64,000 nucleotides of DNA from a virus (IMGVR_UViG_3300037089_000506); one strand, 5' to 3'; shown: positions 748-24,745, counted from the stretch's first letter. Program-made: numbers and translations. The notes: generated from the letters alone by a model not told the origin.

Positions 748-776
748 TTGACACCCTTCCTAATAAGATGTATATT
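748..776 (+). promoter_or_regulatory. Sigma70-type early promoter
   Basis: TTGACA-N17-TATATT. It implies the downstream gene starts at ATG 804. Confidence 0.7.
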
Positions 777-803
777 ATTATTAGCTTAGATGAAGGAGAG
801 TGT

Positions 804-1715
804 ATGAATACTGTTGGAATGGGTAGGAAGCCTTTTGTATCTGAGGCTGTTGAGCAGTTCAAAATTGCCAACTCCCATGTGGACTTTACTGACACTTCTA
901 TAATGAGCGCTTACAATCTCTATCGGGATTGGGCTCAAATGACTGGAAAGAAAGAAGTGTCCTACGTCTCTTTTCTCCATACCTTCGAGGCTCCTGAAGC
1001 TCCCGTCAAGAAGGAAAACCTTCTGAGCCTCACTGAGCAGTTTGACCTTTTGGAGAGGTATGTGAAGATAGTGGACAGCGGAATTCTTAAAGCTCTCTAC
1101 GTTCATGGAGAGCCTGGAATAGGCAAGACATTGACAGTGGAGAAGCTTCTTCCCAAGACCAATGACAAGTATCAGTACTTCTCTGGTGGAGTTAAAGGTA
1201 GCTATGAACTTGCTAAGATTCTCTACAATAACAGGGAAGGTAAGGTACTGATATTTGACGACTTTGACTCTGTGTTCAAGACCCAAACCCAGGTAGACGT
1301 ATTGAAGATAGCACTCCAGAACAAGCCTGTAAGGACTATTACCTGGATGGACGGAACCAAGAGGACGAAGGGAGACAAGCTTCCTGAGAACTTCGAGTTC
1401 ACCTCCTCCATTATCTTCATCTCTAACAAGTGTAGATTGGACGCTGCTATTCAGTCCCGCTGCAAAATCATGGGTTTCAATACCTCTAAGATGCAGGTTC
1501 TAGACTATATCAAGAGCAAGTTTGGAACCTTCATGAAGGAGATTCCCCTTTCGGTGAGGATAGAGGTTTACAACTTCTTCGCTTCTAATCTTGCCTCGTT
1601 CCCCAGGGTGGACTTCAATCTCTTCTACAACGTGTCGATAGATTGCTTTCTGGATTATCAGGATAAGCGCACTGATGGCCACTGGAAGTTAGCTGCACTT
1701 AATGGAGTTGTATGA
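804..1715 (+). CDS. Phage P-loop/AAA+ ATPase
   Basis: Walker A GEPGIGKT, Walker B LIFDDFD and sensor IIFISN. RBS AAGGAG lies before ATG 804. Confidence 0.75.
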   Translation: MNTVGMGRKPFVSEAVEQFKIANSHVDFTDTSIMSAYNLYRDWAQMTGKKEVSYVSFLHTFEAPEAPVKKENLLSLTEQFDLLERYVKIVDSGILKALYVHGEPGIGKTLTVEKLLPKTNDKYQYFSGGVKGSYELAKILYNNREGKVLIFDDFDSVFKTQTQVDVLKIALQNKPVRTITWMDGTKRTKGDKLPENFEFTSSIIFISNKCRLDAAIQSRCKIMGFNTSKMQVLDYIKSKFGTFMKEIPLSVRIEVYNFFASNLASFPRVDFNLFYNVSIDCFLDYQDKRTDGHWKLAALNGVV

Positions 1716-11056: not shown

Positions 11057-12025
11057 TTAATTAGTCATATAACTTTCTGCTAAATCTAGTATAGATTTAT
11101 CATATTGAGCATCCTTCTTCCAGAACGCAAATAATTTAGCATTAGTGAACTCTTCCTTATTTCCTAATACGCCTAAATCAGTCAAACCTTCAGTATCTAT
11201 CTCAGCAGAATATAGTGTTTTATGAATATAAATATCTCCATACTGCTCTTGAGCTATCTCGGGCGAAGCGCAATTTTCTATAGTCCAGATTGGATATTTA
11301 GCTTCTACTTCAGGCAGAGGATTAGGAAACCTAACTGTATAGTAATCGCATAGAGTAGGCAAAGGTATAATCTTTTTATTTTCATCAAATACCCAGAAGG
11401 CTCTAGATTTATTAGCCTCGGAAGTAGAATTAGGAACTACAGAACCAATATAATGTTTAGCAGGATTATGCTGGTGCCCTAAACATATATATTTAGCCTT
11501 TATCTTACTTATGTTTACAGTTCTTTCTTTTATATCCATTAGAGAAGTATCAGTAAAATGCCCAAAAAGAATATCACAATCAGTATCTATCTTCTCATAG
11601 TCCTCCCATTTCATTTTCGAATCTGAAAACAGGTAAGGCATAAACAATATATTCTTATTTTCAATAGTAGTCTCAAGTAATTCATCCACTACAGTTATTT
11701 TAGTACGGGAGAACAATCTACTGACAGATTTAGATTGTAAAAACTTATAGCTTAAAACAAGCTTGCCCTGTTTATTTGGTTTTTTATCGTGGTTCCCTAC
11801 TAATACATATACCTCTTTATAGTTCAGATTGGAGAATAAAATTAATAATAAATCAGTAATGAGCCCCGAGGGGAATGCAGTCTCAGTCAAGTCCCCTAGT
11901 AATACTAGTGTATTCTCCTTGACATTATACTCACTATCAATAATAGTTTTTATTATTTCCTTGGATACATTATAAGACCAAGACCGGGCATCTGAGCAAT
12001 GCAAATCTCCCCAGGCTACTATCAT
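11057..12025 (-). CDS. SbcD/Mre11/gp47-like metallophosphoesterase nuclease
   Basis: WGDLH, LGD, GNHD, FGHF and LGHQH motifs. An SbcC partner is at 22688. Confidence 0.8.
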   Translation of the reverse strand: MIVAWGDLHCSDARSWSYNVSKEIIKTIIDSEYNVKENTLVLLGDLTETAFPSGLITDLLLILFSNLNYKEVYVLVGNHDKKPNKQGKLVLSYKFLQSKSVSRLFSRTKITVVDELLETTIENKNILFMPYLFSDSKMKWEDYEKIDTDCDILFGHFTDTSLMDIKERTVNISKIKAKYICLGHQHNPAKHYIGSVVPNSTSEANKSRAFWVFDENKKIIPLPTLCDYYTVRFPNPLPEVEAKYPIWTIENCASPEIAQEQYGDIYIHKTLYSAEIDTEGLTDLGVLGNKEEFTNAKLFAFWKKDAQYDKSILDLAESYMTN

Positions 12026-12127: not shown

Positions 12128-12679
12128 TTAGCCAATTACTTCCTCCACAATAATATTATTATTAGTATAAATACAGATTTCAGAGGCTATTTCTAAAGAT
12201 TTACGTGCAATTAGACTAGCATTTTCTGGAATATCAAAAGCATTATAAGCATACATTAATGCTTTTGAAGCAGCTAGAGCATATTGTCCTCCAGAGCCAA
12301 TAGCAAGACTATTATTTTCAGCTTCAATGACATCTCCTGATCCGGAAAGAAGAAGAATATTATCCTTATCTGCTAAAAGCAATTCTGCTTCTAGTTTACC
12401 AAATATTCTATTTGTCCTCCATTCTTTAGCTAAAGCTACAGCAGCACGTTCCATGTTTTTAGTAGTATTTATTTTCTTTTCAAAGAAATCTAATAGTGAG
12501 GTAGCGTCAGCTACACTACCAGCAAAGCCTACTATAATTTTTCCATCAAGGAACTTCCTGATTTTACGTACATTAGATTTTAACACTATATCTCCAGCAG
12601 TAGCCTGTCCATCAGCAGCCATAGTGGTACGCCCATTATAGCGTACTGCTAGTATTGTAGTTCCATGTAATTTTATCAT
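12128..12679 (-). CDS. hslV: HslV (ClpQ) threonine protease subunit
   Basis: HG|TTILAV propeptide and catalytic Thr, ADGQ, RKIRK, GFAGSVADA, IGSGG and CIYTN. Confidence 0.95.
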   Translation of the reverse strand: MIKLHGTTILAVRYNGRTTMAADGQATAGDIVLKSNVRKIRKFLDGKIIVGFAGSVADATSLLDFFEKKINTTKNMERAAVALAKEWRTNRIFGKLEAELLLADKDNILLLSGSGDVIEAENNSLAIGSGGQYALAASKALMYAYNAFDIPENASLIARKSLEIASEICIYTNNNIIVEEVIG

Positions 12680-13893
12680 AGTATAGACTCCTCAGTATTC
12701 TTCACTTCTTTTCCCCTATTGGCATTGTCAAGTACAGAATTAATAATTTTCATGATAGCCTCATCCCCAATATGAGTATCCTCTATCTTTTCCTGCTGTA
12801 GCCAGAACTCCTGAATACGAATATTATCTACAATAGCCTTCAACATAGCATAAGAGATGGCAGCATTCTTCTTTTTCAAGTATATCAAAATCATCCCATG
12901 ATTAGTATACTCGGAAAGATATGTTTGTAAGAATTTTCTTTGACTCTCTTCTGTAGGAGGCTCAAAGGTAATAACCTTATCAATACGTCCGGGGCGCATC
13001 AAGGCAGAATCAAATGTAGAGATAAAGTTCGTAGTAAGGATAAAAACAGCATTAGATACATCTTCAATGCCATCTAAGATTTGTAATAGGGTTCCCAAAA
13101 CATTATTAGAATTGGTTTGTTCCCTATCATCATCTTCATTGTGTTTTCGTTCTTGTACATAAGTATCAAACTCCTCGAATACAAGGATTCGCTTATTTTG
13201 ATTATCTCCCTCTTGATTCTCTAAAAAGTCTCGTGCAGATTTATACGCTCTAAATTCAATTTTATTTTGTATAGCTTGGGACTTTAACCAAGCTAAAGAA
13301 AGGGTCTTGCCATTCCCAGGGGGACCGGAAAAAATAAATCCTCTTTTCTGTTTGATAGAGTACTGCTTACAGAACTTGGCAAAATCCTCATTAATAAGAA
13401 AGTCTAGGATATCTTTTTTAAGCATATCTAAAGGCAAATCAATCAGAGGTGCATGGATAGCGGTGTTTATTTTATTGTCTTTAAGCTGTTTAGCTGCTAA
13501 AATTATATCTTTGATTATATCATTAGGAGCGAGGATAATATCATGTGAGTCCCCCACAAATAAAGGAGTGATTATTTTTAAAAACTTCATCCCCTTAATA
13601 AAACAACGATTTACTTCAGAAAGGATAATGGAATCAAGAAGATTATCATTGTAATCAAAATGGGCATGGATAGTTATAGAGGGGCTTTCCGTTTCAACAC
13701 CCGAACGAATAGGATACATTCCATCTTTATTAAGTTGTACCCCCACATCCTCTTCAATAGGTTCAATTACCTCCGCATAATCTTCGGAATCTGCCAGAAA
13801 GGCGATGCCAAAGTCAGTGACACCAGGGAATTCTTTTTGAATAAGTTTGCCATACAAATTCAATACATAGTAGCCAGGATCATTATTCGCCAT
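12676..13893 (-). CDS. Single-domain classic-clade AAA ATPase (BCS1/FtsH-like; not HslU)
   Basis: GPPGNGKT, VFEEFD, LQILDG and TTN...DSALMRPGRIDK (second region of homology). Its stop overlaps the hslV start (ATGA). Confidence 0.85.
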   Translation of the reverse strand: MANNDPGYYVLNLYGKLIQKEFPGVTDFGIAFLADSEDYAEVIEPIEEDVGVQLNKDGMYPIRSGVETESPSITIHAHFDYNDNLLDSIILSEVNRCFIKGMKFLKIITPLFVGDSHDIILAPNDIIKDIILAAKQLKDNKINTAIHAPLIDLPLDMLKKDILDFLINEDFAKFCKQYSIKQKRGFIFSGPPGNGKTLSLAWLKSQAIQNKIEFRAYKSARDFLENQEGDNQNKRILVFEEFDTYVQERKHNEDDDREQTNSNNVLGTLLQILDGIEDVSNAVFILTTNFISTFDSALMRPGRIDKVITFEPPTEESQRKFLQTYLSEYTNHGMILIYLKKKNAAISYAMLKAIVDNIRIQEFWLQQEKIEDTHIGDEAIMKIINSVLDNANRGKEVKNTEESIL

Positions 13894-13911
13894 TTGTGCT
13901 TCCTTTATTAT

Positions 13912-13940
13912 AGTATACTAAACTTCTTAAAAAATGTCAA
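13912..13940 (-). promoter_or_regulatory. Sigma70-type promoter of the AAA-hslV operon
   Basis: TTGACA-N17-TATACT. Confidence 0.75.
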
Positions 13941-19708: not shown

Positions 19709-20209
19709 CTACCTACCACCGCCTTTCCTACCCAAAAAACGTGAGATAAATCCTTCCCTGTCAGTATCCTTCTTCTCTAAAGATACTGTTAGATTCTCTA
19801 CGGAACTTTTAGATGGAGCATTGAACCCCATCTTATTCAGTGCATCTAATAGAGGTGTCTTCTCTGTCAGCATATGCTTTACAGGCTTTTTAGTTTTTTT
19901 ACTATCAACTAAATTTTGAATTGAATCTAAGTAAGGAGCATCAGCTTCACTATGAGGGGTTAGATGAGTTACTGTCATATCTACAGTGTTTAATAAGTGA
20001 AAAGAAGTATCTCGCATACTTTCATATACATCATGAACTAGGGAAGGATAATGGTCCTTTATCATTTGCATAAAAGAATCCATATTCATTAGTCTTCTTG
20101 AAGGTGATCCATCCATATAGTACCACGTTGCGTTGCGGTCTAACCAATTCTGGTAAATGAGATACTGGAATTGAATTTCTGGATATTTAAACCTACCATA
20201 CTCATCCAT
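19709..20209 (-). CDS. Hypothetical protein
   Basis: ATG 20209 overlaps the stop of the GIY-YIG gene. Confidence 0.5.
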   Translation of the reverse strand: MDEYGRFKYPEIQFQYLIYQNWLDRNATWYYMDGSPSRRLMNMDSFMQMIKDHYPSLVHDVYESMRDTSFHLLNTVDMTVTHLTPHSEADAPYLDSIQNLVDSKKTKKPVKHMLTEKTPLLDALNKMGFNAPSKSSVENLTVSLEKKDTDREGFISRFLGRKGGGR

Positions 20210-21062
20210 AATAATATTCCCACTGGTAGTTACCAGTTTGTTTTTGTTTACCTTTACAACATTTTGTAATTGCACTATTATCTACATTATATTTTCCTGC
20301 TGCTAACTTAATATAAGCAAAAACTTCTCCGGTAGTAATACACCTAACCTGTCTACACCCTACATTTTTTTGGCCTAGCTTACACTCTCTTAATTTTTGT
20401 TTAGTTATTTCAGAGCGAGGTACCCCTAATTTACTCTGACTTATTTTTCTTTTATGCTCTTCAGACTTAGGATTATGCATATGTTGTTTATGCTTTTCAG
20501 TTTTAGGCTTTCCTTTACTGGCTAAACTCATTTTACTTTTTGTTTCAGTGGATATTGTTTTCCCCTTATGAAGATTACTTAATCTTTCCTTTGTTTCCTT
20601 AGAATGATGCTTACCCAGCATATTTAAATTTCCTACATGAGCTTTACCCATTAGTTTTTTTTCTTCTTCAGTATGCTTTCTACCATAATTTGGATTTTTA
20701 TCTCCTGCAAACCTTCCCTTCAATGATACAGATATTTTATTCCTAACTTCTTGATTCGGGCTGTTACCTATCTCTCCTCCTAAAGTCATATTATACCCTA
20801 ATTCCTTAAAATTAGTCCCAAACATTTCAATATAAATTTGTTCTAGCATACAAGCTTCTTCATCCGTTTGAGCTATGTCTAGCGTTTTCCAACAAAATTT
20901 ATTAAACCCATGCTTTCTTATAGAAGTATAAAATAGAGTATTAGTCCCACTTTTAGCATGGGACTTATGGCCTAATATTCTATTTCTTAGGTTTTGTTTA
21001 GTTTTTCCAATATATATTTTATTATTCACCATGTTAATAGCACAATATATTATTATACTCAT
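20202..21062 (-). CDS. GIY-YIG homing endonuclease with multiple NUMOD3 repeats
   Basis: IIYC...IYIGKT, EQIYI and GYNMTLGG; repeats of KHTEEEK, KHHSKETK and KSEEHKRKIS. Confidence 0.85.
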   Translation of the reverse strand: MSIIIYCAINMVNNKIYIGKTKQNLRNRILGHKSHAKSGTNTLFYTSIRKHGFNKFCWKTLDIAQTDEEACMLEQIYIEMFGTNFKELGYNMTLGGEIGNSPNQEVRNKISVSLKGRFAGDKNPNYGRKHTEEEKKLMGKAHVGNLNMLGKHHSKETKERLSNLHKGKTISTETKSKMSLASKGKPKTEKHKQHMHNPKSEEHKRKISQSKLGVPRSEITKQKLRECKLGQKNVGCRQVRCITTGEVFAYIKLAAGKYNVDNSAITKCCKGKQKQTGNYQWEYYYG

Positions 21063-22403: not shown

Positions 22404-22691
22404 ATGGCATATCTCAAGATAACTGATGTAAGTGGAATTGAATATGATTTACAAGTTTTAGACGAAGATAGAAATATTCTCATATCCAAAGAATTTGGAA
22501 GATTTATTCCCTTAGAGGAGTTTACAAAAATTGAAATTGGGGGATATGAAGATAAAATATCTGATTTAGAATCAGATGTTGAAGATGCTAAAGATGCTGT
22601 TATTGATGCTGAAGATGAAGCCTTTGTGTATAAGGAAAGGGCTGAAGAATGGGAAAATAAATATAATATTCTACTTAAGGAACATTCATGA
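22404..22691 (+). CDS. Acidic coiled-coil hypothetical protein
   Basis: GGAGG RBS before ATG 22404. Confidence 0.55.
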   Translation: MAYLKITDVSGIEYDLQVLDEDRNILISKEFGRFIPLEEFTKIEIGGYEDKISDLESDVEDAKDAVIDAEDEAFVYKERAEEWENKYNILLKEHS

Positions 22692-24745
22692 TACAATTCT
22701 TAGATTTAAAAAACTGGATGAATATTTCTGATGCTCATTTAGAATTTATTGAGGGTATAAATCTAATCCAAGGTATTGTTGGTTCAGGTAAATCAGCAGT
22801 ATTTGCTGCTATAGCCTACGCCATTTCTGATTATAGGCGAGGAGATACATGGAGAGAATATATCAAGACTGGTGAAAAGTTTTTTGAGATTAGACTCGGC
22901 TATGTATTCGGAAACAATAAAGAGTCACCTATGGTACTGGTCATTAGGGGTGATACCGGAAGGGCTTCAGTTTCAAAAGAAGCATCATATAAAGGTAATA
23001 CCTATAAAAATTCAGAAGTTGACCAATTCCTTGGATTAAAGTTCGACTTGGATATTATGAGTAAAGTCATATTCAATCTCCAAGGTAAGCAACCATTAGC
23101 ATTAATGACACCAACAGAGAGAAGAGATATATTCAAGAAATTATTTAATTCAGATTTTATAGATATTGTAGAGAAAATAAAAATTGATAAGGACGAAATA
23201 CAGAAATCTATAATAGCAAAAAAAGCAGGAATAAATGCATTAAAAAATATGGAGTATCCCTTGTTTAGAGTTATTTCAGTGGATGAATCAGAATTAACTC
23301 AATTACAAGATGAATTAAAACAGGCGCATCTAACAGAGTATCTTTATGAGAAATTGGATATATATACTGATAAGTTAAATCAGTTAAATTCAACCCAACA
23401 AAAAATAGAAAAAGCTCAAAGAGAAGTTCAAAATTATTTGGTAAGAGAAGAAAGAACAAAAGAAATGCTAATTAAAATCCAAACGGATTATGAAGTAAAG
23501 AAAAATGAAATACAGCCTTTAATAGAGTCTATAGAAAGAATAAAAATATATATAGTACATAATAAGAAAGAAATGGATGGGTATAAATCCAAATTTAATA
23601 TAGAAGAAGTATATAAAGATTTACAAACCCAAGAAAACAAATTAATAGAATTAAAATCAGAAATAAGTATAAATAAAAAGTATTTAGAGACACATAAAAA
23701 AGGGAAATGTACAGAATGTGGTCAAGACTGCTCAATAGAGGGAATAGAAAAATTTACTAGTATTATTACTAAGTTCAATGAAGAAAAATTCCATATTGAA
23801 ACTAATATTACTATAGATAAAGGAACAATACAGAATTATGAAGAGGAAATGAAAAAATCTGACCGTATAGATTTAGATTATAAACAAGAAATAGAAAAAA
23901 AGGAAAATGAACTGGGGTATATTAGGCAAACCTTATCAGGGTATGAAGCCCGTATGGAGGAGATAAAAGAAGAGCTTATTCAACATAGTATTAGTATAGA
24001 TACTGCTCAAAAAAATATTAATGATACTCAAAAGGAAATGGTTAAGATTCAAGAATGGCTAGAAATAAATCCTAAACCTGAAATTAACGAAGCTACTAAT
24101 AAGTCTGTAAAAGATATTCAGGCTGCTATTGATGATATTCAGAAAAGAATTCAAAGCAATATAACTAAAGCTGAGATGAATGAGAAGTCAAAAAAAGCTA
24201 AAGAAAAAGATGAGAATACTATTATTAATTTGAACTTGGAGATAAATGCATTAGAGTCTAAAGTGAATAACCTCAATCTGGTTAATCAGATTTATACTAT
24301 TGACTTCCCTTCCTTTATTAATATGAAGGCGTGTAAGCTTCTAGAGTCTCATATGAATAGTTTCTTTGCTACTACTAAGGATCATTTTGAGGTAGCATTG
24401 CAATCTGACAAAAAAGGAATTTCATTCTATTATAAATCTAATTTAGAACCAGAATGGAGAAGTTTGAGGATGGTTTCCGGCTTTGAATCAGCGTTATCTA
24501 CATTAGGGTTTAATGTATCTGTAGCTCGTGCTTTTGGTTCTGACATGATTTTCTTAGATGAGCCTGAAGCAAATGCAGACCCACAAACAGCGGAAAAGCT
24601 GTTCGAAACAATAGCTTCCATAGGGGGCTTTAAGCAACTATTTGTAATTACACATAAAGAAAATGTACTCCCTATCCTTAGATATCAAGGAGCTAAAATC
24701 TATAAGGTAAAGGGAGGGGTATTTGAAAATAACATAGACTACTAA
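22688..24745 (+). CDS. SbcC/Rad50/gp46-like SMC ATPase
   Basis: GIVGSGKS, coiled coil with zinc hook CTECGQ, signature VSGFE, Walker B FLDEPE and H-loop ITH. Confidence 0.9.
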   Translation: MIQFLDLKNWMNISDAHLEFIEGINLIQGIVGSGKSAVFAAIAYAISDYRRGDTWREYIKTGEKFFEIRLGYVFGNNKESPMVLVIRGDTGRASVSKEASYKGNTYKNSEVDQFLGLKFDLDIMSKVIFNLQGKQPLALMTPTERRDIFKKLFNSDFIDIVEKIKIDKDEIQKSIIAKKAGINALKNMEYPLFRVISVDESELTQLQDELKQAHLTEYLYEKLDIYTDKLNQLNSTQQKIEKAQREVQNYLVREERTKEMLIKIQTDYEVKKNEIQPLIESIERIKIYIVHNKKEMDGYKSKFNIEEVYKDLQTQENKLIELKSEISINKKYLETHKKGKCTECGQDCSIEGIEKFTSIITKFNEEKFHIETNITIDKGTIQNYEEEMKKSDRIDLDYKQEIEKKENELGYIRQTLSGYEARMEEIKEELIQHSISIDTAQKNINDTQKEMVKIQEWLEINPKPEINEATNKSVKDIQAAIDDIQKRIQSNITKAEMNEKSKKAKEKDENTIINLNLEINALESKVNNLNLVNQIYTIDFPSFINMKACKLLESHMNSFFATTKDHFEVALQSDKKGISFYYKSNLEPEWRSLRMVSGFESALSTLGFNVSVARAFGSDMIFLDEPEANADPQTAEKLFETIASIGGFKQLFVITHKENVLPILRYQGAKIYKVKGGVFENNIDY

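What the first reader, a model, noticed from the sequence alone, without database searches (positions are those of the whole stretch)
12128..13940. Phage HslV coupled to a non-HslU classic AAA ATPase ending in -SIL: candidate new proteasome-like machine
Seen: a promoter (13912..13940) drives a 405-aa AAA ATPase whose stop overlaps the start of an intact hslV (ATGA at 12676..12679). The HslV keeps the propeptide-Thr1, Lys33 region and GSG. The ATPase has the classic-AAA second region of homology (ALMRPGRID), a BCS1-like Walker B (VFEE), a roughly 170-aa unknown N-domain and no HslU I-domain. Established: HslV is normally activated by HslU, whose C-terminal tail (E. coli ...SRFIL) docks between HslV subunits. 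This ATPase ends ...TEESIL. Inference: the phage has paired HslV with a different unfoldase using a similar -IL docking tail, possibly to degrade host defence or regulatory proteins or to process virion proteins.
Basis: partly seen in the sequence, partly recalled or inferred. Interest (0 to 1): 0.85.

Follow-up and report, generated by a model that had tools for sequence, protein, structure and literature searches.

The report
Phage HslV coupled to non-HslU ATPase
An uncultured large phage carries a genuine HslV protease gene translationally coupled to a Bcs1/YjoB-type classic AAA ATPase instead of HslU, a pairing conserved in one phage clade that may be a new proteasome-like machine, but so far supported only by gene arrangement.

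Summary
A sigma-70-like promoter drives a 405-aa classic AAA ATPase whose stop overlaps (ATGA) the start of an intact HslV. The HslV passes NCBIfam's HslV equivalog cutoff and keeps all catalytic residues. The ATPase is not HslU. By fold and Walker B type it belongs with Bcs1 and YjoB.

The ATPase belongs to a rare phage family of about 30 clusters at 50% identity. It usually sits in DNA-replication modules with no hslV nearby. hslV was captured once, in this window's clade, and has co-diverged with the ATPase since (ATPase to about 61% identity, HslV to about 54%).

The terminal [I/V]-L tail is family-wide and older than the capture. Members without hslV carry the exact HslU-type [Y/F]-[I/V]-L. 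The hslV-linked clade lost that aromatic, partly because its last codons now hold the hslV Shine-Dalgarno. The phage HslV also changed at the published pocket positions F54 and F57.

No hslU lies in the window, but about 134 kb of the genome was unseen. There is no physical evidence of binding. I put a functional ATPase-HslV pair at about 50%. It would be a new variant of a known kind.

The parts
13912..13940 (-). Sigma-70-like promoter TTGACA-17-TATACT in front of the ATPase-hslV pair
   Evidence: 11 of 12 matches. A comparable TTGAC(A/T) and -10 element lies upstream in L092 and L093. Function is inferred, not shown.
13899..13906 (-). Shine-Dalgarno (AAAGGAAG) of the ATPase gene
   Evidence: Read from the sequence. 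AAAGGAAGCACAAATG also occurs in L092, and TAGGAGCCATAAATG in L093.
12676..13893 (-). 405-aa classic AAA ATPase of the Bcs1/YjoB type (whole CDS including stop)
13369..13893 (-). N-terminal domain (residues 1 to about 175). It is family-specific in sequence and Bcs1/YjoB-NTD-like in fold. Cys97 and Cys175 are invariant.
   Evidence: Alignment A1. Model. Foldseek top hits are Bcs1 over 373-443 columns. YjoB 7w42_B aligns to model residues 1..389.
12721..13368 (-). AAA module (residues 176-391): Walker A 190-197, Walker B 236-243 (VFEEFD; family consensus VFEDFD), sensor-1 N289, second region of homology R300/R303, helical lid
   Evidence: VIA Z 17-18 to Rpt subunits, Mpa, AFG2 and p97 over residues 142-405.
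12679..12720 (-). C-terminal tail (residues 392-405, ...RGKEVKNTEESIL), predicted disordered at its end. The terminal [I/V]-L is conserved family-wide.
   Evidence: pLDDT is below 50 for residues 402-405. Tail statistics: 38 of 46 family members against 2 of 74 non-family AAA. New representatives agree.
12688..12693 (-). GAGGAG Shine-Dalgarno for hslV, embedded in ATPase codons -5 and -4 (Glu-Glu), 8 nt before the overlapping ATG
   Evidence: Read from the sequence. L093 has the same arrangement, and L092 has AAGGAG with a GTGA overlap.
12128..12679 (-). hslV, 183 aa: 6-residue propeptide, then catalytic Thr1 (residue 7)
   Evidence: NCBIfam NF003964 223.8 bits and TIGR03692 218.7 bits, both above cutoff. 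Pfam Proteasome. Catalytic residues are kept, while pocket positions 54 and 57 differ from bacterial HslV.

Best explanation
The promoter-ATPase-hslV unit encodes a phage-specific two-component ATP-dependent protease that is probably made early in infection. The ATPase is a ring-forming classic AAA of the Bcs1/YjoB type, with an N-domain cap above an AAA ring. It replaces HslU. Its free C-terminal ...[I/V]-L tails insert into the clefts between HslV subunits, as HslU tails do. This activates the phage HslV and hands it substrates chosen by the family-specific N-domain. The ATPase family is older than this partnership. One lineage captured a bacterial hslV directly behind the ATPase gene, fused the two by translational coupling, and the tail and the HslV pocket then changed together.

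Shown: gene identities, the coupling, single capture, co-divergence, tail conservation and the pocket changes. Inferred: physical docking, activation, substrate hand-over and timing.
For: (1) HslV is a bona fide, catalytically intact HslV under purifying selection across a clade spanning 54-100% identity.
(2) The stop/start overlap, with the hslV SD inside the ATPase's last codons, is conserved in the window, L092 and L093. Matching contig lengths pair P0003/P0123, P0006/P0125, P0007/P0126, P0008/P0128 and P0010/P0136.
(3) All hslV-linked ATPases form one clade, and the phage HslVs form one clade with support 0.999. That fits one capture followed by long co-inheritance. hslV GC content equals that of the phage.
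(4) The family has a conserved, disordered C-terminal tail ending in [I/V]-L. In most members it is [Y/F]-[I/V]-L, the same as real HslU tails: EDLSKYIL and EDLSRYIL in L166 and L167, and EDLSRFIL in E. coli (PMC4106860). The tail is absent from 74 other AAA proteins retrieved in the same search.
(5) On the capture branch both sides changed. The tail lost its -3 aromatic. The HslV pocket positions that hold that aromatic (F54 and F57, per PMC6429459) became T/V/I and L, with further changes at 76, 84, 87 and 88 on the adjoining helix.
(6) There is no HslU in the window. The only other viral HslVs I found sit in ordinary hslV-hslU operons.
(7) The ATPase motifs are intact, and an aromatic-hydrophobic pair sits at the pore-loop-1 position.
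Against: The ATPase family normally lives without hslV, so its core function does not require a phage HslV. The capture is a single evolutionary event, so the tail and pocket co-change is one data point. The loss of the -3 aromatic also has a trivial explanation, because those codons now carry the hslV SD. That aromatic is reported as the key determinant for HslV activation (PMC4106860), and this clade lacks it. The closest structural relatives, Bcs1 and YjoB, act as chamber chaperones or translocases, are not known to dock proteases, and Bcs1 is heptameric (PMC9565160). About 134 kb of the genome was not available, so a phage hslU cannot be excluded. The host's HslU could also serve.
Confidence: 0.5

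Rival explanations
1. The pairing is coincidental. hslV is a captured host gene that works with the host's HslU, with a phage hslU outside the window, or alone on unfolded proteins. It merely landed behind an unrelated replication-module AAA chaperone or remodeller, and operon compaction then produced the ATGA overlap.
For: Most family members have no hslV and sit among replication genes: a clamp-loader-like ATPase, DHH, PolA, 5'-3' exonuclease, SbcD-like and a phrog_1314 nuclease. Bcs1/YjoB-type ATPases are not known protease partners (PMC9565160). The tail in this clade lacks the activating aromatic (PMC4106860). Overlapping stop/start codons are common in phage operons (general knowledge). 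HslV keeps K28, K33, R/K35 and the general HslV surface.
Against: Pocket positions F54 and F57, which accommodate the HslU tail aromatic in bacterial HslV, are replaced throughout the phage clade. T, V or I at position 54 was seen in none of 111 bacterial sequences. That argues against continued use of a canonical HslU. The neighbour that received hslV happens to be an AAA with an HslU-type tail, which is an unlikely coincidence. The pair stayed fused over deep divergence. No hslU lies in the window.
Confidence: 0.3
2. HslV is activated by the ATPase tail only as an allosteric switch, as synthetic HslU peptides do. There is no substrate threading. The Bcs1/YjoB-like chamber holds or releases specific folded clients, and HslV degrades only what is released unfolded.
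For: HslU C-terminal peptides of 8-12 residues are enough to activate HslV (PMC6429459). YjoB and Bcs1 work through an internal chamber (PMC9565160). Pore loop 1 lacks the canonical glycine.
Against: An aromatic-hydrophobic pair is retained at pore loop 1. Nothing here distinguishes threading from allosteric activation.
Confidence: 0.12
3. HslV serves as a virion-maturation (prohead-type) protease, and the ATPase is irrelevant to it.
For: Phages commonly encode maturation proteases. Unchecked first-reader notes on this genome mention protease-like cleavage motifs in structural proteins.
Against: The gene lies in the replication region behind a sigma-70-type promoter, far from the head genes. 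HslV is a self-compartmentalised Ntn protease, unlike known prohead proteases (established knowledge). Only one small clade has it.
Confidence: 0.05

Closest known systems
Bacterial HslUV (ClpYQ) protease
   Same: The same protease component: an HslV equivalog with Thr1, K33 and GSGG. It is encoded in one operon with an AAA+ ring ATPase whose free C-terminal hydrophobic tail ends in -IL. In the wider ATPase family the last three residues are the HslU-type [Y/F]-[I/V]-L (PMC4106860).
   Different: The ATPase is not HslU. It matches no HslU model and has no I-domain. It belongs to the classic AAA clade and not the HslU/ClpX clade. The gene order is reversed, with the ATPase first. This clade's tail lacks the key aromatic. 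HslV pocket residues 54 and 57 are altered.
Proteasome-activating classic AAA ATPases (PAN, Mpa/ARC, Rpt1-6, Cdc48) with 20S proteasomes
   Same: A classic AAA module (VIA Z 17-18 to Rpt subunits and Mpa; best partial NCBIfam hits) paired with an Ntn-threonine protease, with docking proposed through C-terminal tails.
   Different: There is no OB or coiled-coil N-domain and no HbYX or GQYL motif with a penultimate Tyr. The protease is HslV, which has no alpha ring. All scores are far below those families' cutoffs.
Bcs1 (mitochondrial) and B. subtilis YjoB
   Same: These are the best full-length structural matches, N-domain included. The family consensus Walker B is the unusual 'ED' type that PMC9565160 describes for Bcs1 and YjoB.
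   Different: There is no transmembrane helix and no Pfam BCS1_N match. The window clade has 'EE'. This family has a conserved C-terminal docking-type tail, and in this clade an adjacent protease gene. Neither feature is reported for Bcs1 or YjoB.
Phage proteasome homologs PPH/AAH, and 'HslV without HslU' in jumbo phages (PMC8665760; pSal-SNUABM-04, PMC7823757)
   Same: Phage-encoded proteasome-family peptidases with no HslU in the genome.
   Different: [quoted passage not shown] Here the protease is a true HslV with a conserved, translationally coupled AAA neighbour.

Membership tests
HslV (NCBIfam NF003964 / TIGR03692) | Score above the curated equivalog cutoff | tested here: met
   223.8 bits (cutoff 137) and 218.7 bits (cutoff 157.75).
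HslV (NCBIfam NF003964 / TIGR03692) | N-terminal catalytic Thr exposed after Met or a short propeptide, plus D17, K33 and GSGG | tested here: met
   MIKLHG|TT...; T1, T2, D17, K28, K33 and G124 are invariant in the phage clade and in 111 bacterial HslVs.
HslV (NCBIfam NF003964 / TIGR03692) | Canonical HslU-tail pocket (F54 and F57 in Ec/Hi HslV, per PMC6429459) | tested here: not met
   Position 54 is T/V/I (F in one of nine), and position 57 is L in 9 of 9. Bacteria have F/M/L at 54 and mostly F at 57. This describes partner specificity and is not a criterion for family membership.
HslU | Match to HslU/ClpX-clade models and presence of the I-domain | tested here: not met
   No HslU family among NCBIfam hits at E<=0.01. 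blastp against a real HslU (L165) matches only 14 residues at the P-loop. The fold search lists no HslU among the top hits.
HslU | C-terminal ...[F/Y]-I-L with the antepenultimate aromatic (PMC4106860) | tested here: not met
   The window ends in -ESIL. The aromatic is present in family members without hslV but absent from the whole hslV-linked clade.
Classic AAA (Pfam PF00004) | Walker A and B, sensor-1 Asn, second region of homology with two Arg | tested here: met
   PF00004 at 55.3 bits (cutoff 21.2). G193, G195, K196, E240, D243, N289, R300 and R303 are invariant.
Bcs1/YjoB subgroup of classic AAA | 'ED' instead of 'DE' in Walker B (PMC9565160) | tested here: inconclusive
   The family consensus is VFEDFD (ED). 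The window clade has VFEEFD (EE).
Bcs1/YjoB subgroup of classic AAA | Bcs1/YjoB-type N-terminal domain capping the AAA ring | tested here: inconclusive
   The Foldseek top hit is Bcs1 9gs2_A (E 6.6e-14, 373 columns). YjoB 7w42_B aligns to model residues 1..389, but at rmsd 9.0. There is no Pfam BCS1_N hit. The N-domain was not folded and searched on its own.
Proteasome-activating nucleotidases (PAN, Mpa) | Score above the family cutoff; HbYX or GQYL C-terminus; OB or coiled-coil N-domain | tested here: not met
   About 52 bits against cutoffs of 500 or more. The C-terminus is -SIL. The N-domain is alpha/beta and Bcs1/YjoB-like.

The most novel reading that the evidence does not exclude
The whole ATPase family, about 30 clusters found almost only on phage-like contigs, consists of phage-encoded HslU mimics. 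They are Bcs1/YjoB-type AAA rings that use an HslU-type [Y/F]-[I/V]-L tail to commandeer the HOST's HslV and redirect it to phage-chosen substrates during early infection. The window's lineage later captured its own hslV and evolved an orthogonal tail-pocket pair. This would be the first non-HslU activator of HslV, and a new way for a phage to hijack a host protease.
Probability: 0.2. Interest if true: 0.88.

Novelty: new variant of a known kind. Interest (0 to 1): 0.68.

Why it matters
HslU is described as the only known AAA+ partner of HslV, and it lies outside the classic AAA clade that serves true proteasomes (PMC8665760). A classic-clade AAA that has been locked to an HslV for a long evolutionary time would be a second, independent recruitment of an unfoldase or chaperone by a proteasome-like protease. 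It would bear directly on how proteasome-ATPase partnerships arise. The candidate is also easy to test: two small soluble proteins, an established fluorogenic assay, and a clear tail-deletion control. If the wider family docks host HslV, it would additionally be a new phage strategy for taking over host proteolysis. If the pairing proves coincidental, the finding reduces to a phage auxiliary hslV next to an uncharacterised replication-module AAA ATPase.

Tried and rejected
(1) Complex prediction with HslV residues 7-183 x3 plus ATPase residues 366-405 gave score 0.02 against a mark of 0.32. That is no verdict, so it counts neither for nor against binding.

I therefore could not read gene neighbourhoods of database proteins or the rest of the 198-kb contig. 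Adjacency for five pairs rests on equal contig lengths.

(3) No whole genome is held for the window.

(4) An N-domain-only alignment (A2) was too variable for a metagenome scan.

(5) I tested whether the conserved ~135-aa gene downstream of the ATPase in hslV-less loci is the ~140-aa phage proteasome homolog PPH. This is rejected: hhalign probability to HslV is 0.6%, there is no Pfam or PHROG hit, and the fold search gave a best Z of 5.4 to generic curved-sheet folds and nothing significant in BFVD.

(6) A 182-aa ORF downstream of the ATPase in L001 is not HslV.

(7) HslV hits in the isolate-phage collection are host fragments or whole hslVU operons.

(8) PF00227 searches of the records behind L001 and L081-L084 found only an archaeal MAG's own proteasome on other contigs. 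The records are incomplete, so this does not show absence.

(9) The ESM Atlas returned only generic phage AAA clusters.

(10) The HslV tree gives no donor lineage, because the midpoint root separates the phage clade from everything else.

Full report
OBSERVATION. The minus strand of the window holds a 405-aa ORF (12676..13893) and a 183-aa ORF (12128..12679). They overlap in ATGA at 12676..12679. A near-consensus sigma-70-type promoter, TTGACA-17-TATACT, lies at 13940..13912. It is followed by an AAAGGAAG Shine-Dalgarno. The same promoter and SD layout precedes the homologous gene in two related metagenome loci.

The downstream protein is a true HslV. It scores 223.8 bits on NCBIfam NF003964 (cutoff 137) and 218.7 bits on TIGR03692 (cutoff 157.75). 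A six-residue propeptide, MIKLHG, precedes Thr-Thr. D17, K28, K33 and GSGG are invariant.

The upstream protein matches only Pfam AAA (residues 187-311). Its Walker A, Walker B, sensor-1 and second region of homology are intact, and it ends in ...TEESIL. It has no HslU signature. No HslU model hits it. A genuine HslU taken from locus L165 shares only 14 P-loop residues with it.

WHAT THE ATPase IS. A database search found a sharply bounded family. There are 46 clusters at 90% identity with full-length matches (E from 1e-266 to 1e-42). After that the hits fall to generic FtsH, Bcs1 and other AAA matches at about E 1e-16. An exhaustive profile search of 1.84 billion representatives found only about 30 full-length clusters at 50% identity before multi-domain p97-type proteins take over. 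The family is therefore rare.

An AlphaFold model (pLDDT 76.5) shows an alpha/beta N-domain, an AAA core and lid, and a disordered extreme C-terminus. Foldseek's best hits are the heptameric Bcs1 (E 6.6e-14 over 373 columns) and B. subtilis YjoB, followed by proteasomal Rpt subunits. VIA-align gives Z 17-18 for residues 142-405 against Rpt, Mpa, AFG2 and p97, all tied. YjoB is the one entry that aligns from residue 1 to 389.

The family consensus Walker B is VFEDFD. This is the unusual 'ED' that PMC9565160 describes as characteristic of Bcs1 and YjoB. The window clade has 'EE'. A profile alignment to AFG2 and p97 places the family's K-[E/D]-[F/Y]-[L/M]-[E/D] on pore loop 1 (KYVG). An aromatic-hydrophobic pair is kept there but the glycine is not. 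The protein is therefore a classic-clade AAA with Bcs1/YjoB architecture. It is neither an HslU nor a PAN/Mpa orthologue.

THE TAIL. Across the family, 38 of 46 proteins end in [IVLT]-[LIM], and 24 of them have Y, F or M at -3. Among 74 non-family AAA proteins from the same search, none has the three-residue motif and only 2 have the two-residue end. New 50% representatives show the same pattern. The terminal Leu is the most conserved tail residue.

Real HslU genes fetched here end in EDLSKYIL and EDLSRYIL (L166 and L167). E. coli HslU ends in EDLSRFIL, and the residue third from the end is reported as a strictly conserved key determinant of HslV activation (PMC4106860). Synthetic 8-12-residue HslU tails suffice to activate HslV (PMC6429459). 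Most of this phage family therefore carries an exact HslU-type end.

IS THE hslV PARTNERSHIP GENERAL? It is not. I fetched family loci from viral, genome and metagenome collections. Searching them with the window HslV by tblastn finds hslV directly downstream only in L092 (81% ATPase identity) and L093 (71%). None of the 13 loci at 44% identity or below with readable downstream sequence has it. The full records behind five such loci have no proteasome-family gene on the phage contig, although these records are incomplete.

Equal contig lengths pair five further ATPase and HslV clusters, down to 61% and 54% identity. In an ATPase tree every hslV-linked sequence falls in one clade, P0001-P0014. 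The phage HslVs likewise form one clade with support 0.999 on a long stem. hslV has the phage's GC content. This indicates one old capture followed by co-inheritance.

Elsewhere the ATPase sits in DNA-metabolism modules. Its neighbours include a clamp-loader-like ATPase, DHH, PolA, a phrog_1314 nuclease and another ATPase. In 10 loci it is followed by a conserved ~135-aa protein of unknown fold that is not proteasome-like. The window's own neighbours are a 5'-3' exonuclease, an SbcD-like phosphoesterase, a primase and an SbcC-like ATPase.

THE TWIST. The hslV-less clades have [Y/F/M]-[I/V]-L. The hslV-linked clade alone has E-[S/G/N/R/E]-[I/V/L]-L. Two observations bear on this.

First, in all three readable loci the last ATPase codons contain the Shine-Dalgarno for hslV. 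In the window and L093 it is GAG GAG TCn ATA CTA TGA, and in L092 it is AAG GAG TCA TTA TTG TGA. The invariant Glu at -4 and the small or acidic residue at -3 are therefore at least partly imposed by translational coupling.

Second, the phage HslV clade differs from 111 bacterial HslVs at the positions the literature assigns to holding the tail aromatic (F54 and F57; PMC6429459). Position 54 is T, V or I, which was never seen in the bacterial set. Position 57 is L in 9 of 9. There are further stem-branch changes at 76, 84, 87 and 88 on the adjoining helix, while all catalytic residues stay fixed.

Both sides of the putative interface therefore changed on the same branch. That fits co-adaptation into an orthogonal pair. 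It is, however, a single evolutionary event, and it could also reflect release from HslU binding.

OTHER VIRAL HslVs. In the isolate-phage collection, HslV hits are host fragments or ordinary hslVU operons. In IMG/VR only two contigs were found, each with a canonical hslU directly downstream. Jumbo phage pSal-SNUABM-04 was reported to carry 'HslV' genes without HslU and with no proposed partner (PMC7823757). [quoted passage not shown] I found no description of a classic-AAA-hslV operon.

NO hslU IN THE WINDOW. Pfam scans of all ORFs of 230 aa or more found none. tblastn with a real HslU gave a best E of 1.7. Notes from other windows of this genome mention none. About 134 kb of the genome could not be examined.

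MECHANISM AND ODDS. The best-supported reading is a functional two-component protease in which the Bcs1/YjoB-type ring replaces HslU and docks by its ...[I/V]-L tails. I put this at about 0.5. It rests on conserved coupling, long co-inheritance, the HslU-type tail of the family, the paired tail and pocket changes, and the absence of hslU nearby.

The main rival is coincidental adjacency, with HslV served by host HslU or acting alone. I put this at about 0.3. It rests on the family's hslV-independent distribution, its chaperone-type relatives and the missing aromatic.

The most novel reading not excluded is that the whole family mimics HslU to commandeer host HslV, and that this lineage later internalised the protease. 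I put this at about 0.2. As weak evidence against it, three MAGs into which family contigs were binned show no HslV. Binning of phage contigs is unreliable, though, and those MAGs are small.

The one complex prediction gave no verdict and is not used as evidence.

VERDICT. If the pair is functional, it is a new variant of a known kind: an HslV protease with a non-HslU, classic-AAA partner. It is well suited to a simple biochemical test.

Noticed in passing
L083:1912-2325, L084:4264-4668, L095:5474-5875, L096:1571-1948, L098:7438-7842, L100:2588-2965, L101:2293-2691, L104:4732-5151, L105:7780-8208 (also partial in L103): A conserved ~126-143-aa gene lies directly downstream of the ATPase in family loci without hslV, in the slot hslV occupies in the window clade. 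It has no Pfam or PHROG match, is not proteasome-like, and its best structural match is Z 5.4 to generic curved alpha+beta sheet folds. It may be the ancestral partner or client of the ATPase.
   Followed up: yes
protein P0241 (672 aa): A family member with an insertion of about 270 aa just after the P-loop region. It aligns to window ATPase residues 9-206 and 185-405. It may be an intein or an inserted domain.
   Followed up: partly
window 13369-13893 (ATPase N-domain): Two cysteines, C97 and C175, are invariant across 32 family members, alongside E37, K106, T109 and D118. They may form a redox or metal site or a structural pair in the N-domain.
   Followed up: no
L081, L082, L083, L084 (genome contigs): Closely syntenic phage-like contigs carrying the family ATPase are binned into MAGs labelled Gammaproteobacteria, Thermoplasmatales archaeon, Spirochaetales and Bacteroidetes. 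This taxonomy is mutually inconsistent, so the contigs are probably mis-binned phage contigs.
   Followed up: partly
L166:4001-5930 and L167:3-1534 (IMG/VR contigs of 60.7 and 53.5 kb): These two viral-classified contigs carry complete canonical hslV-hslU operons, with HslU ending in EDLSKYIL and EDLSRYIL. They are either phage-captured whole operons or host DNA in viral bins.
   Followed up: partly
window 20202-21062 (-): A GIY-YIG plus NUMOD3 homing-endonuclease-type gene lies in the replication region.
   Followed up: no
window 768-1715 (+): A second, unrelated AAA-type ATPase of 315 aa (weak PF00004 and AAA_16 matches).
   Followed up: no
window 11057-12025 (-) and 22688-24745 (+): An SbcD-like phosphoesterase (phrog_100) lies immediately downstream of hslV, and an SbcC/SMC-like ATPase lies about 10 kb away on the other strand. 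The two halves of the nuclease are separated.
   Followed up: no
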